Source: Balanoglossus misakiensis
Taxonomy: Eukaryota > Animalia > Hemichordata
DNA length: 64,000 nucleotides
NCBI GenBank assembly: GCA_040954595.2
Contig: CM082590.2
Location: 7,378,001-7,442,000, forward strand
Direction of reading: 5' to 3'
The notes under the pieces were generated by a model, which was not told where the DNA came from, made no database searches, and saw nothing but the letters and a program-made list of their open reading frames with translations. Positions 6,801 through 30,800 of the stretch are shown here, in pieces. Positions within the stretch are counted from its first letter, which is position 1, and every line of letters starts with the position of its first letter. The position numbers and the translations under genes are program-made.

Positions 6801-9800
6801 CTGACTACGTGTCTTACAAGAATGCAATTTTGATCAGTCCGAAATTGTTCTAAACCACACCAGCTCCTATTCACATTAGTAGTGACTCACTGACACAATA
6901 TATTCTGGATTAAAAATCAAATATGTTTAATAATTAACACATCATAATTTCAAAACATAATCAAATCAAACATATTACATGTTTATTACTGTTATTCAAA
7001 TACGTAGCAAGTATGTACTGACTATAAAACCACTTGATTGTAGGATAATACAGTTTCAAATTTATAAAATGTTACAAGTACAAATTTTGAACAAACATAG
7101 GCCTACATTCTTGTTTATATAGAAAACACCGTAAAATATACAAATTACCGGTATACAAATTTTCAGAGGAATCAAGAGATATATAAAAAGGTTACAACCC
7201 GCACAAAACATTTTACAGAACAGCTGCCAACATTAATTTCTCTCAAATATATCTAATTGGCGGTTAAGTGAGTTTTCATTATCAGAAAACTAACGTTGTC
7301 TTTTTGTGTTCAAAAGTCACTATAAGCTTTATTTTCCATGGTGATAATAAGTTCTGTTTAACTTGTAAAAAGTCATCACACATTAACTATAAAAAAACAA
7401 TAAAGGTTAGAGTTTGTGGTCTCCATGGTTACTAAGTATAATGTACTGATTCAATTTATCGGCTATATTAGTGCATTTTAGCGTAGATACAAGTTTTTCT
7501 TGTGTTGCTATGGTTTTATGTCTTCACAACAAACACAGTAGGGCGTTCTCTGTTGGCATGTCTCGCCGTTTTGATTTCCTTCCACACTTCACTCTCACTT
7601 CACTGAGCAAACACCTTCACATATCCGTTCCAACTAGACACGATAACATTGCCAAATGGCTTGTCATCGGTCACACAGATACCTCGTGTCAGTTCTACCC
7701 TATCATTATCACTGTCAATGCGACCAATGAATTGACCATCTGACTCATACTTCATCACTCTGTGATTACCGTTATCACACACATACACATTGCCATCACT
7801 GTCATGTGATATCCCCCGGGGGTTCATCATCTGATTATCACCTGACCCTTGACTTCCAAAGCTGTACAGATATCCACCCTCAGCATCAAACACTTGAATA
7901 CGGTGATTGCCATGATCTGATACAAACACTTTCCCTGCAGCATCAATACTGATGCCTATAGGGAAGGACATCTGACCTTGACTTTGACCTTTAGTGCCAA
8001 AAGACTTGTAATGATCACCATTTTTGTTGTAGATGTGTACACAGTGACCCCAACAATCGACAACATAGACCCTCCCATTGACAGGATGTATCGCAATTCC
8101 GCGCGGGGATTGAATCACACCTTTGCCGAAACAACGCATCACTCTACCATTCTCATCATGCACGATTACTTGCTTACCACTGATATCAGTAGTAAAGATA
8201 CTTCCATCCTCTGATGCAGCTGAAAACAATGGACGAACTTTGGTTGAAATATTACTGAACGTGGTTGTACATCTATGTTGGCCATGTTGTGTGAATGACT
8301 GTAATCTATTATTATCACTATCACACACCCTAACATTGCCATCCCTGGTTGCCATGACTCCCAATGGGCCACTCAACTGACCGACTGCCGACCCTTTCTG
8401 ACCAAATTTACAAATCAAACCTTTCTGTGGAATAACTTTGATTGTAACTGGTGACCCTTTGACTGGTTTCTTGGATACCGACACTGAGACTTCATGATTT
8501 CCTGTCATCTTGGCACGGGTTTTCAAACTCCATGTTCCATCACCATTATTTGTTGTTTCCATGTCGTCTGGTTTCTTCAAGACTGCCTCTACTTCTACTT
8601 CTTCGTGTGCTGCTCTTCTCTGCTTGACCTCTGTTGCTAGGGTGATGGTGATATCTTCATCAACTCTTGCAAATTCGGGAACATCAACCAGACTGCAGTT
8701 ATCAGCTGTTAAAGGATTCCATGTGGATATTACACCCACAGTTTTTGTTCCACAGAAATCAACACATGGTTTGAACTCCATGTAGTCAGTCTCAGTCGGG
8801 TCAATTTTCGTCTCCATTCTCAGCAATTCTTCCATTTGAGTGGCAATCCCTTTCCTGGCTGACATCAACTGCGCTGCATTCCCAAAATGCATCAGTTTCT
8901 CAGCATACTCTCTTGCATTTGACATGTCACTCTCTGCAAACTCCAGTTCTTTCAGTTGTGCATTTAAGTTGACTTTCCTTCTATCGTATTCATCTTTCAG
9001 CTCTCCAAGAAGTTTGTCACCATTTTCACGAATCATGCGAGTGACGTCATCGATTGTTTTCTGGATGTGTTCTTTCATTTTCTTGTTCTCTGTCTGATAA
9101 CAGCTGTCGAGAGATTCGGCCGTCTCCGTGACGACGGCTTTGCTGTGGCTGGCTTCGTCTTCTTTCACTTTCACTTTGTCGATTACTTCTGTCAGATCTT
9201 TGCAGTATTCAGTGGCTGCGTCTTTCAAGTATCTGTATTTATGCTCGGTGATTGGATGATCTATAGCCGTGCATTTGTGACAGATAGCTTTGTCGCACGT
9301 GTCACAGTAGAATTCGATTTCGTTGTTAGGGTGAGCAGAACAGTAGATCGGTGGCTGAACTGAAGCGAGGCCAGCGGACTTTGCAGACTCGAACTCTTCC
9401 AAGGTCATCAGACGGTGTGATTTTGTCACCTTGAAGCGAGTATGTGCAAGAGCGCAGTTACTGCACATATTAACATCACACTCGATGCAATGATTTGTAA
9501 TCTCATTCTGATCACAGCTCTCGCATTTTCTGGACCTGTTGGTTCCCTCTTCGCGTTTTCCAAACACTTCCACCAATTTGTTGACGAATGCATTGCCACC
9601 GATACCTGCCACGCCACTATCAGGAAGTTGGTATGAACGCCGACATATTGGACAGGCTATGACGCTACTTTTCTCTGCCAGCTTCCCCAGACACGGCTCG
9701 CAGAAGCTGTGCAGACACGGTAGCTGTTTAGCATTCTTGTATCGCTCCGAGCAGATAGTACAGGAGAGAAAATTAGTGTCGATTGCCGCCAAGAACTTGG

Positions 9801-27800: not shown

Positions 27801-30800
27801 ACAAACACTTTCCCTGCAGCATCAATACTGATGCCTATAGGGAGGTACATCTGACCTTGACTTTGACCATAAGTGCCAAAAGACTTGTAATGATTACCAT
27901 TTTGGTTGTAGATGTGTACACATACTGAGTGACCCCTATGATCGACAACATAGACCCTCCCATTGACAGGATGTATCGCAATTCCGAGCGGGGATTGAAT
28001 CACACCTTTGCCGAAACAACGCATCACTCTACCATTCTCATCATGCACTATTACTTGCTTACTTGTACCTCTGTCATCAGTAGTAAAGATACTTCCATCC
28101 TCTGATGCAGCTGAAAACATTGGACAAACTCTGGTTGAAATATTACTGAACGTGGTTGTACATCTATGTTGGCCATGTTGTGTGAATGACTGTAATCTAT
28201 TATTTTTTCCATCACACACCCTAACATTGCCATCCCTGGTTACCATGACTCCCCATGGGCCACTCAACTGCCCCACTCCCGACCCAAACTGACCAAATTT
28301 ACAAATCAAACCTTTCTGTGGAATAACATTGATTGTAACTGGTGACCCTTTGACTGGTTTCTTGGATACCGAAACTAAGACTTCATGATTTCCTGTCATC
28401 TTGGCACGGGTTTTCAAACTCCATGTTCCATCACCATTATTTGTTGTTTCCATGTCTTCTTGGCTGTCGTCTGGTTTCTTCAAGACTGCCTCTACTTGTA
28501 CTTCTTTGGGCGCTGTTTTTCTCTGCTTGACCTCTGTTGCTAGGGTGATGGTGATATCTTCATCAACTCTTGCAAATTCGGGAACATCAACCAGACTGCA
28601 GTTATCAGCTGTTACAGGATTTGATGTGGATATTACACCCACAGTTTTTGTTCTACAGAAATCATCACATGGTTTGAACTCCATGTAGTCAGTCTCAGTC
28701 GGGTCAATTTTCGTCTCCATTCTCAGCAATTCTTCCATTTGAGTGGCAATCCCTTTCCTGGCTGACATCAACTGCGCTGCATTCCCAAAATGCATCAGTT
28801 TCTCAGCATACTCTCTTGCATTTGACATGTCACTCTCTGCAAACTCCAGTTCTTTCAGTTGTGCATTTAAGTTGACTTTCCTTCTATCGTATTCATCTTT
28901 CAGCTCTCCAAGAAGTTTGTCACCATTTTCACGAATCATGCGAGTGACGTCATCGATTGTTTTCTGGATGTGTTCTTTCATTTTCTTGTTCTCTGTCTGA
29001 TAACAGCTGTCGAGAGATTCGGCCGTCTCCGTGACTACGGCTTTGCTGTGGCTGGCTTCGTCTTCTTTAACTTTCACTTTGTCGATTACTTCTGTCAGAT
29101 CTTTGCAGTATTCAGTGGCTGCGTCTTTCAAGTATCTGTATTTATGCTCGGTGATTGGATGATCTATAGCCGTGCATTTGAGACAGATACCTTTGTCGCA
29201 CGTGTCACAGTAGAATTCGACTTCGTAGTTAGGGTGAGCAGAACAGTAGATCGGTGGCTGAACTGAAGCGAGGTCAGCGGACTTTGCAGACTCGAACTCT
29301 TCCAAGGTCATCAGACGGTGTGATTTTGTCACCTTGAAGCGAGAATGTGGAACAGCGCAGTTACTGCACATATTAACATCACACTCGATGCAATGATTTG
29401 TAATCTCATTCTGATCACAGCTCTCGCATTTTCTGGACCTGTTGGTTCCCTCTTCGCGTTTTCCAAACAGTTCCACCAATTCGTTGACGAATGCATTGCC
29501 ACCGATACCTGCCACGCCACTATCAGGAAGTTGGTATGAACGCCGACATATTGGACAGGCTATGACGCTACTTTTCTCTGCCAGCTTCCCCAGACACGGC
29601 TCGCAGAAGCTGTGCAGACACGGTAGCTGTTTAGCATTCTTGTATCGCTCCGAGCAGATAGTACAGGAGAGAAAATTAGTGTCGATTTCCGCCAAGAACT
29701 TGGACTCTTTGGCTGCCATAGCTGTTGATGTGAGGTGAACGCCTTTCTGTACCTGTGTGTACCAGTACAGAAATCATGTGACGCGATTCCACAAAGTCTG
29801 GTGTATATACCTGTTCCCCGTAGTGCAATGTTTACTGAACTGTCAAAGGTTTGTTGCATGTACATATGATAAGCCCCGCCCCCGGCCCATAGTCTAGTGT
29901 GAACAGAAGTGAACTAGCGATAGCGATGACCTCGTTTGAACTAAGGGGTGGACCACTTGATATCTGGGTGGCTGGGAGAACCATGGTTTGTCTGACACAG
30001 TTTACGTCCGAAGGGCCCTCGGAAAATGAAAAAATGTTTTCCAGCAAGTACTTTTTGATGGGTTTTGCTAAAAGAACCATTATATATCTGACACATTTTG
30101 CGCCTGAAAAATGAATAAATGTGTTCCAGAAATTAAACCTTTGAAGGATTTTGGCCGATTAAAGGTATACGGTCACCTATGGAAAATTAGCTATAGTTAC
30201 CATAGCAAATGGAGATCTAGCCAATCACAAATTTTTAGTGGGTGGCACACGCGAAAAAAAAGAGTGTGACCATAATGTTCTTTAGAACGCTCAAATATGC
30301 CATTTCAGCCATATATGGACGTACGTAAATTGGAGTTGACCGTTTACCTTTAACCACTTTAGTTTTAATAACTACATACATGGAGTGAATAGCAACGCAG
30401 TTACAACATTTAAATGTTTGAATGAAAACAGCATAAAAAAGTAAACCGAAAGCAGTACAAGCACAGCACCAGGGCCTTCACTCATTCAAACACAGTGACT
30501 TACACCTCATTATGGGGTTCAAGTTCGGCTATCTTTGATCTTCTCCCTGTCTCTGTCCATCTGTCTGTCTATATATCTCTCTCTCACTTGTCTGTCTTTT
30601 CTGTCTCTGTCTCTGTCGCTCTCTCTCTCTGTGCACATACATAGATACATACATAGATACATACATACATACATACATACATACATACATACATACATAC
30701 ATACATACATACATACATACATACATACATACATACATACATACATACATACATACATACATACATACATTACATACATACATTACATACATACATACAT

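What the first reader, a model, noticed from the sequence alone, without database searches (positions are those of the whole stretch)
7600..29719. Five-gene TRIM-NHL array with site-restricted hypervariable beta-propeller loops: candidate diversifying recognition system
Seen: RING, B-box and coiled-coil regions and the NHL beta-strands are nearly identical in the five copies, but the same positions of all six NHL blades differ. xxPx motif (copies 1-5): blade 1 SGPL/SNPR/NDPW/NDPC/SGPW; blade 2 VRPL/VSPM/VHPK/VSPM/VCPM; blade 3 SPR/SPF/SPR/SAF/SPL; blade 4 SFPI/FSPV/YHPV/FSPI/YLPI; blade 5 MNPR/SCPQ/SCPQ/SNPW/SRPH; blade 6 ELTR/EYPR/EYPR/ESPA/ESPA. Dxx motif: DSD/DRN/DSY/DSD/DGK; DIS/DYS/DDS/DDS/DDR; DCW/DYF/DRD/DWG/DHR; DHG/DQG/DQY/DEG/DQF; DNG/DWG/DYS/DHS/DHN; SWN/SMN/SHY/SRN/SWN. 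Changes are radical and often involve several nucleotides of a codon amid invariant neighbours (blade 5: gat AAC GGT / TGG GGT / TAC AGT / CAC TCT / CAC AAT aat). Known: in Brat and LIN-41/TRIM71 the loops on one propeller face form the ligand/RNA-binding surface, and TRIM5 SPRY loops diversify this way under viral pressure. Inference: a constant E3 effector with a variable binding face, resembling an innate immune or anti-parasite receptor repertoire.
Basis: partly seen in the sequence, partly recalled or inferred. Interest (0 to 1): 0.92.

Follow-up and report, generated by a model that had tools for sequence, protein, structure and literature searches.

The report
Acorn-worm TRIM genes with hypervariable face
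Five neighbouring copies of a TRIM-NHL gene, from what is probably an acorn worm, are almost identical except for a ring of about 30 residues on the predicted binding face of their propeller domain, which is changing far faster than neutral drift allows, as expected of a likely set of intracellular detectors for pathogens.

Summary
Confirmed. Five intact single-exon RING-B-box-B-box-coiled-coil-filamin-6xNHL genes lie head to tail, antisense, in one intron of an M1 aminopeptidase gene. The closest relatives are acorn-worm proteins (Ptychodera 68%).

Thirty positions (P-2, P-1, P+1, D+1, D+2 of each blade) vary: 26 of 30, against 24 of 247 elsewhere in the propeller. All 14 named RNA contacts of LIN41 fall in these classes. 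Codon models give omega of about 24 for 11% of NHL codons (2dlnL 145). The signal survives all 15 trees, multi-nucleotide mutation, a free local mutation rate and a recombination null (maximum 13). Flanking synonymous sites are not raised, so this is selection, not a mutation hotspot. The same positions are enriched in 8 of 9 non-overlapping acorn-worm paralog pairs from three genera and in 15 of 35 other pairs. TRIM71 keeps them fixed from fish to human.

Best reading: a birth-and-death repertoire of cytosolic E3 ligases with a diversifying NHL recognition face, working like fish finTRIM or TRIM5 but with NHL in place of SPRY. Expression, ligand and immune role are untested. I found no paper describing this; the scan has noted similar arrays in sea urchin and bivalves.

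The parts
7600..9816 (-). TRIM-NHL copy 1, single-exon ORF, 738 aa (RING, two B-boxes, coiled-coil region, filamin, six NHL blades)
12318..14546 (-). TRIM-NHL copy 2, 742 aa
   Evidence: model of filamin+NHL
16948..19158 (-). TRIM-NHL copy 3, 736 aa
22675..24900 (-). TRIM-NHL copy 4, 741 aa
27479..29719 (-). TRIM-NHL copy 5, 746 aa; two private 2-residue insertions beside the blade-2 and blade-3 Dxx loops; close upstream homology to the other units stops near 30096
12321..13139 (-). NHL propeller of copy 2. Hypervariable codons include 13091-13080, 13037-13032, 12902-12897, 12821-12819, 12773-12768, 12686-12675, 12632-12627, 12545-12534, 12491-12486, 12413-12402, 12350-12345, and the P-10 codons 13115-13113, 12710-12708, 12569-12567
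11413..11763 (.). about 138-bp minisatellite (2.6 copies) at the junction of units 1 and 2; related sequence at 6829-7099 and 16109-16395
20815..22139 (.). 138-bp minisatellite, 9.6 copies, junction of units 3 and 4
26585..26933 (.). 138-bp minisatellite, 2.5 copies, junction of units 4 and 5
3073..6685 (+). host gene, M1 aminopeptidase, four exons before the array (M1_N, then Peptidase_M1 profile positions 27-122); exon ends approximate
31260..41190 (+). host gene, exons after the array (Peptidase_M1 profile positions 121-183, then ERAP1_C exons); exon ends approximate

Best explanation
This is a young tandem array of five intact TRIM-NHL genes whose propeller loops on one face are under strong positive selection, and the proteins likely act as intracellular pathogen detectors: the variable face would bind a foreign protein or RNA and the constant RING end would tag it with ubiquitin. 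Shown: gene structure, tandem units of about 4.7 kb joined at a 138-bp minisatellite, mosaic sharing of variants among copies, selection confined to one face, and the same pattern in young paralog groups of three other acorn-worm genera. Inferred: copies arise by unequal crossing-over at the minisatellite; gene conversion and purifying selection keep the scaffold uniform while selection keeps the binding faces different; coiled-coil dimers bind a repeated target with avidity and trigger ubiquitination, as in TRIM5 and TRIM56 (known families, not tested here). The face is rich in Tyr, Trp, Asn and Ser and much less basic than that of LIN41, so a protein surface or base-specific single-stranded RNA is a more likely ligand than an RNA stem-loop backbone.
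For: M2a vs M1a on NHL codons: 2dlnL 145, omega2 24.7, 10.8% of sites; 132-156 over all 15 trees, 159 on a star tree, 80 with double and triple mutations allowed; neutral mosaic simulations reach at most 13.4 in 24 of 24 runs. With a free local rate at the 30 sites omega>1 is still required (2dlnL 19.2, p 1e-5; 21.3 with multi-base changes) and the local rate does not differ from 1 (p 0.5, 0.2). Synonymous changes beside these codons: 1 of 45, against 7 of 108 far away. All 20 sites with posterior above 0.95 lie in d-a or b-c loops (16) or at the start of strand a (4), none in the opposite loops; loops on this face 32 of 86 variable, opposite loops 4 of 58. All 14 LIN41 RNA contacts named in PMC5908797 fall in the same five position classes (counted by hand). 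Out of sample: 8 of 9 non-overlapping acorn-worm pairs with p<0.01, 125 of 262 face positions differing against 200 of 2121 elsewhere in the NHL. Zebrafish and human TRIM71 are identical at 30 of 30 (read by eye). Precedents: finTRIM abstract; TRIM56 restricts Zika virus through RING activity and its NHL-like C-terminus (passages).
Against: Nothing here shows expression, E3 activity, a ligand or induction by infection. Positive selection on a binding face does not name the antagonist. Only five sequences from one assembled haplotype, and the codon models are my own implementation (NEB, not BEB). The out-of-sample tests are on proteins only, so they show enrichment, not omega. One acorn-worm pair (P0148/P0233, 5 of 30 vs 21 of 234, p 0.16) and 20 of 35 non-acorn-worm pairs show no significant enrichment, 19 of those 20 among the closest pairs; groups E6 and E7 show none. 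The best-studied proteins with this architecture (LIN41, Brat, TRIM2/3) are developmental regulators. The IRF-like motif upstream is not above chance once copies are collapsed.
Confidence: 0.62

Rival explanations
1. Conflict with selfish genetic elements: the same variable-face E3 ligases recognise transposon or endogenous-virus RNAs or proteins, likely in the germline, and silence or degrade them.
For: The face is the RNA-binding face of LIN41 and Brat; several TRIM-NHL proteins act in RNA regulation and the germline (listings); intragenomic conflict also drives positive selection in tandem arrays (general knowledge, e.g. KRAB zinc fingers).
Against: The face has only 1-4 Lys/Arg in 30 positions in the five copies against 9 in LIN41; no germline data; no link to any element was found.
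Confidence: 0.15
2. Self/non-self or partner diversification without pathogens: copies diverge to recognise different alleles of an endogenous protein (gamete or allorecognition, as with S-locus F-box arrays) or different endogenous substrates.
For: Arrays of E3 substrate receptors with variable propellers do this in plants (recalled, not from a call). Top-face diversity among human NHL domains is thought to separate binding partners (passages).
Against: One-off partition among endogenous substrates would not give omega near 24 repeated in many separate young clades; no linked polymorphic partner gene is in the window, the only neighbour being the host aminopeptidase.
Confidence: 0.12
3. No selection for diversity: the loops are merely unconstrained or sit in a mutation or conversion hotspot, while gene conversion homogenises the rest.
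For: Loop residues tolerate change; 54% of informative site pairs are incompatible, showing recombination, which can inflate omega.
Against: Neutral-hotspot model rejected; flanking synonymous sites not raised; changes at codon positions 1/2/3 are 30/27/14 in the face and 36/31/49 elsewhere; opposite-face loops nearly invariant; mosaic null at most 13.4 against 145 observed; the same face is conserved in TRIM71 and in some coral-type groups whose RBCC varies.
Confidence: 0.04
4. Assembly artefact: alleles or read errors laid out in tandem.
For: The copies are 93-99% alike and no second assembly was available.
Against: All five frames are intact; flanks and minisatellite lengths differ by unit; contigs of public DNA runs show 8 letters of the other copies, and 6 new ones, at the same codons; related paralog groups occur in other assemblies.
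Confidence: 0.02

Closest known systems
TRIM-NHL proteins, class C-VII / Marin subfamily C (TRIM2, TRIM3, TRIM71/LIN41, TRIM32, TRIM56, Brat, Mei-P26)
   Same: Same domain order RING-B-box-B-box-CC-filamin-NHL; model matches LIN41 filamin-NHL (6fpt, E 6e-29) and TRIM2 NHL (TM 0.93 on target, rmsd 1.9); same face is the binding site.
   Different: Only 25-31% identical to the solved domains; known members are conserved near single-copy genes (Group 1 in PMC2533329, passages) with a fixed face (TRIM71 30 of 30 identical fish to human); here a young multi-copy array with the face under positive selection and without the LIN41 basic pocket.
Fish finTRIMs and primate TRIM5alpha (TRIM-B30.2/SPRY)
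   Same: [quoted passage not shown]
   Different: Recognition domain is an NHL propeller, not B30.2/SPRY; invertebrate; virus induction is shown for finTRIMs but unknown here.
TRIM56
   Same: RING plus NHL-like C-terminus; both needed to restrict Zika virus, the C-terminus binding viral RNA (PMC6623546, passages).
   Different: Single mammalian gene; orthology not tested; no hypervariable array described in the passages read.
Nematode F-box gene expansions
   Same: E3 substrate receptors in large families with strong positive selection (PMC8120010, search listing and start of abstract only).
   Different: Cullin adaptors, unrelated folds.
Unstudied RefSeq 'TRIM2-like / TRIM71-like / TRIM45-like / TRIM56-like' models of Ptychodera flava, Glandiceps talaboti and Saccoglossus kowalevskii
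   Same: Same family: P0005 (XP_070579814.1) 68% identical over the full length; the same positions vary in their young paralog groups.
   Different: Names are automatic; the five copies form their own clade (support 1.0), so this array is a separate recent burst.

Membership tests
TRIM-NHL (class C-VII) | N-terminal RING finger | tested here: met
   Pfam zf-C3HC4 32.6 bits, cut-off 21, residues 19-58, in 2 of 2 copies scanned; these residues are identical in all five
TRIM-NHL (class C-VII) | One or two B-boxes after the RING | tested here: met
   zf-B_box 36.4 and 30.2 bits, cut-off 24.1, residues 156-194; a first B-box at 98-135 scores below cut-off (23.7 and 19.7 vs 27) but shows the Cys/His pattern
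TRIM-NHL (class C-VII) | Coiled coil after the B-boxes | tested here: inconclusive
   No predictor or model was run on this part; residues about 200-340 align with the RBCC of TIF1-beta in the PDB search
TRIM-NHL (class C-VII) | Filamin domain and six-bladed NHL propeller | tested here: met
   Pfam Filamin 29.7 and 31.4 bits (cut-off 26.9), NHL 84 and 77 bits; model pLDDT 94.5 with 24 propeller strands; Foldseek matches
TRIM-NHL (class C-VII) | E3 ubiquitin ligase activity | not testable with these tools
   Inferred from the intact RING only
LIN41/TRIM71 subfamily | Conserved basic pocket (Arg564, 581, 611, 676, 707, 752, 770, Lys628, Tyr658, Trp660 of zebrafish LIN41) | tested here: not met
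   The equivalent position classes are the hypervariable ones; 1-4 Lys/Arg per copy against 9
TRIM2/3 or TRIM56 orthologue | Groups with the vertebrate gene in a tree | not tested
   My tree held no vertebrate sequences; NHL identity to TRIM2 is 31%
finTRIM / TRIM5-type restriction factors | C-terminal B30.2/SPRY domain | tested here: not met
   No SPRY match; the C-terminus is NHL
finTRIM / TRIM5-type restriction factors | Clustered paralogs with constant RING/B-box and positive selection on the C-terminal binding surface | tested here: met
finTRIM / TRIM5-type restriction factors | Induced by, or restricting, viruses | not testable with these tools
   No RNA run was listed
Targeted diversification (DGR-like or hypermutation) | Raised mutation rate in the variable patches regardless of coding effect, or one-base bias | tested here: not met
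   Local rate not different from 1; no synonymous excess beside the sites; all four bases are involved

The most novel reading that the evidence does not exclude
Marine invertebrates, which lack the SPRY-type antiviral TRIMs of vertebrates, have a parallel germline-encoded repertoire of cytosolic restriction factors built on the NHL propeller: dozens of TRIM-NHL genes per genome, renewed by tandem bursts, each with a six-fold ring of antibody-like variable positions wired to a constant ubiquitin ligase. Acorn worms, coral-type sequences and (by the scan's unchecked notes) sea urchins and bivalves all show it, so pathogen recognition could be an old and widespread use of the TRIM-NHL architecture.
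Probability: 0.45. Interest if true: 0.85.

Novelty: new variant of a known kind. Interest (0 to 1): 0.68.

Why it matters
TRIM-NHL genes are treated as conserved developmental regulators, and rapid immune-type evolution of TRIMs is tied to the SPRY group, described as absent from invertebrates (PMC2533329, passages). Here the NHL class shows TRIM5-like evolution in an invertebrate deuterostome, on the exact positions that bind RNA in LIN41. If the immune reading holds, it names a candidate family of intracellular sensors for animals whose cytosolic pathogen recognition is poorly known. It is also directly testable: five proteins that differ almost only in about 30 face residues are a natural set for mapping NHL specificity, and a small stable propeller with a proven variable face is a possible binder scaffold.

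Tried and rejected
Whole genome: none held, so the genome-wide copy number and other arrays could not be counted. Expression: no RNA holder listed; this says nothing either way. Laying DNA-run contigs on copy 2: depths are not copy numbers and no haplotypes could be phased; used only for letters at variable codons. VIA-align comparison did not run; Foldseek was used, and no coordinates were available, so 'one face' rests on strand/loop topology and the LIN41 mapping, not on measured distances. IRF-like motif GAAANNGAAA about 341 bases (copy 5: 312) upstream of each ATG: 15 window matches against 5.9 expected, but 14 are copies of three sites, so four independent sites, below chance; rejected as evidence. 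Positive selection in RBCC+filamin: 2dlnL 10.9 (7.1 with multi-base changes) lies within the mosaic null (up to 13.4, simulated for the NHL length); not accepted. Special multi-nucleotide mutation: double-change rate falls to 0.014 once selection is in the model. Clustering of recombination signal along the gene is weak (adjacent same-split p 0.03, adjacent incompatibility p 0.26), so conversion tracts were not mapped. ESM Atlas only returned TRIM-NHL clusters of cnidarians, echinoderms, sponges, molluscs, nematodes and chordates. Earlier scan findings by sequence and by a seven-word query: none. Complex prediction not used: no candidate ligand.
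Full report
What is there. 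The window holds five uninterrupted ORFs of 736-746 codons on the minus strand, from 7600 to 29719. Pfam gives RING, B-box, filamin and NHL in the 2 of 5 copies scanned. Self-comparison shows tandem units of about 4.7 kb, 90-93% alike including flanks, that meet in a 138-bp minisatellite of 2.5 to 9.6 copies. The array lies antisense inside one intron of an M1 aminopeptidase gene: the exon near 6550-6685 matches Peptidase_M1 positions 78-122 and the exon near 31260-31470 continues with 121-183. The closest proteins are from acorn worms: Ptychodera flava 68%, Glandiceps talaboti up to 56%, with Saccoglossus proteins further off. The window's organism is therefore most likely an enteropneust hemichordate (inference). 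The five copies form one clade (support 1.0) beside a separate P. flava clade in a FastTree of 65 proteins with no vertebrate rows.

The observation. I defined 30 positions as P-2, P-1, P+1, D+1 and D+2 of the six blades. Of these 26 vary and 20 have three or more residues; in the other 247 NHL columns 24 and 4; in the 360 RBCC columns 24 and 0. Counting pN/pS gives 3.0 at the 30 positions, 0.58 in the rest of the NHL and 0.51 in RBCC. Because the set was chosen after the variation was seen, I tested it in three independent ways.

Structure. An AlphaFold2 model of filamin plus NHL of copy 2 (72-row alignment, pLDDT 94.5) matches LIN41, TRIM2, TRIM3, Thin and Brat structures. Classing residues by the model's strands, the d-a and b-c loops have 32 of 86 variable positions (20 with three or more residues) and the a-b and c-d loops on the other side 4 of 58 (none). 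Kumari et al. 2018 (PMC5908797; I read passages) name 14 LIN41 residues that touch RNA. Counting by hand on the 6fpt alignment printed (chain position = residue number minus 415), all 14 fall in the five position classes. Zebrafish and human TRIM71 are identical at all 30 such positions in the same printout (read by eye). The face is thus the known binding face, and it is not inherently free to vary. No coordinates were available, so this is a topological, not a distance, result.

Selection. With my own codon-model code (F3x4, five sequences), M2a beats M1a on the 277 NHL columns by 2dlnL 145, with 10.8% of sites at omega 24.7. The value is 132-156 over all 15 trees, 159 on a star tree and 80 when double and triple mutations are allowed, whose rate then falls to 0.014. 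Recombination is evident, 54% of informative site pairs outside the face being incompatible, but 24 neutral simulations with a new random tree every 5, 15 or 40 codons reached at most 13.4. A fixed-site model that lets the 30 codons mutate faster still needs omega above 1 (2dlnL 19.2, p 1e-5), and the local rate is not different from 1. Synonymous changes occur in 1 of 45 codons next to the sites and 7 of 108 far from them. The weaker signal in RBCC plus filamin (10.9) is inside the null and is not accepted.

Replication. From all fetched proteins I kept the 136 of 680-800 aa with an N-terminal RING pattern, left out one unlabelled protein (P0102) and the window copies, and formed non-overlapping pairs by divergence outside the 30 positions (2-20%). 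Among 51 acorn-worm proteins, 8 of 9 pairs show enrichment at p<0.01; 125 of 262 face positions differ against 200 of 2121 elsewhere in the NHL; the pairs come from all three genera. The exception is P0148/P0233. Among 84 other proteins, mostly unnamed ENA entries of which those in my tree group partly with a Porites protein, 15 of 35 pairs are significant: 14 of the 15 most diverged pairs and 1 of the 20 closest, which may be alleles. Groups E6 and E7 vary in RBCC but hardly at the face. These are protein-only tests. Contigs of two public DNA runs of one sample, laid on 321 bases of copy 2, list 24 alternative letters; 14 fall in the 36 face bases, 8 of them as in other copies and 6 new; 8 of the 10 others are new too. 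More variants than these five therefore exist, as alleles or further paralogs.

How it likely works. Shown: a constant RBCC-filamin scaffold with an intact RING, and a propeller face driven to differ, repeatedly and in separate young clades. Inferred from known TRIM biology: coiled-coil dimers present two propellers, binding of a target clusters the RINGs and leads to ubiquitination. Across 58 family members the face is 14% Asn, 13% Ser, 12% Tyr, 8% Arg and 4% Trp, with a mean of 3.8 Lys/Arg in 30; the five copies have 1-4 Lys/Arg, 1-5 Asp/Glu and 3-7 aromatics, LIN41 has 9 Lys/Arg. That such a make-up resembles antibody binding sites is recalled knowledge. It argues against LIN41-type backbone binding and leaves protein surfaces or Brat-type base reading open. 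Recurrent selection of this strength on a cytosolic binding surface is most simply an arms race with pathogens (0.62); selfish elements (0.15) and endogenous self/non-self partners (0.12) remain; neutral and artefact readings are nearly excluded. Nothing here shows expression, ligand or induction.

Comparison with what is known. It is a TRIM-NHL (class C-VII) by architecture, not a LIN41/TRIM71 by the pocket test, and not a finTRIM or TRIM5 by domain, though it evolves like them (PMC2657112, abstract and outline). TRIM56 shows that a RING plus NHL-like domain can restrict viruses (PMC6623546, passages). Sardiello et al. (PMC2533329, passages) class non-SPRY TRIMs as conserved and call the filamin-related subgroup the only TRIM expansion in invertebrates, meaning a few worm and fly genes. 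Marin (PMC3503706, passages) does not discuss variable NHL arrays in the passages seen. PMC5908797 and PMC9634614 (passages) note that the NHL top face diverges between subfamilies, without selection tests ('positive selection' 0 occurrences in PMC5908797). Nine searches for prior reports (listings only) showed no paper on positively selected NHL faces in invertebrate TRIM arrays; the library lacks most subscription journals and I read no supplements, so this is not proof of absence. The scan's own unchecked notes describe similar arrays in sea urchin, scallop, clam and mussel, one of them without a selection signal; they are not independent support, and they make this one case of a recurring pattern.

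Verdict. Observation confirmed; interpretation partly supported. New variant of a known kind; interest 0.68.

Noticed in passing
window:3073-41190 (+): Multi-exon M1 aminopeptidase (aminopeptidase N-like, N-terminal membrane anchor) that hosts the whole TRIM array in one intron of about 24.5 kb.
   Followed up: partly
window:32112-32434 and 35944-36266: Inverted pair of 323 bases, 97.5% alike, 3.5 kb apart inside the aminopeptidase gene; could be ends of a young DNA transposon or two copies of a short element, and appears to enclose the likely exon at about 32470-32658.
   Followed up: no
window:10148-10157, 14878-14887, 19490-19499, 25233-25242, 30022-30031: IRF-like motif GAAAATGAAA upstream of each TRIM copy, kept in the more diverged copy-5 flank; not above chance once copies are collapsed.
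   Followed up: partly
window:44639-49055, 49505-50220, 52953-55584, 55897-59902, 60273-63795: Blocks of satellite DNA: about 80-bp units; 24-bp-based units present in both orientations (52953-55584 against 60273-63795); 29/58-bp units 98% alike. The 625-aa ORF at 52870-54747 is a read-through of the satellite.
   Followed up: no
window:2235-2548, 5553-5872, 38267-38622, 39940-40133; also 1825-2241 with 50968-51388: Dispersed repeats of about 310 and 420 bases with internal inverted symmetry, probably short mobile elements.
   Followed up: no
alignment columns 366-423 (copy 2 about window:13280-13450): Small in-frame indels and clustered changes at the start of the filamin domain differ among copies and in the public DNA runs.
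   Followed up: partly
alignment columns 116-190 (B-boxes): B-box region holds 15 two-state amino-acid differences in a patchwork among copies; selection signal not above the recombination null.
   Followed up: partly
proteins P0135, P0143, P0151, P0152, P0159: Several Ptychodera relatives have RING but no NHL annotation, and P0151 carries PF00638; P0180 and P0193 of Glandiceps carry PF03256. The RBCC scaffold may take other C-terminal domains.
   Followed up: no
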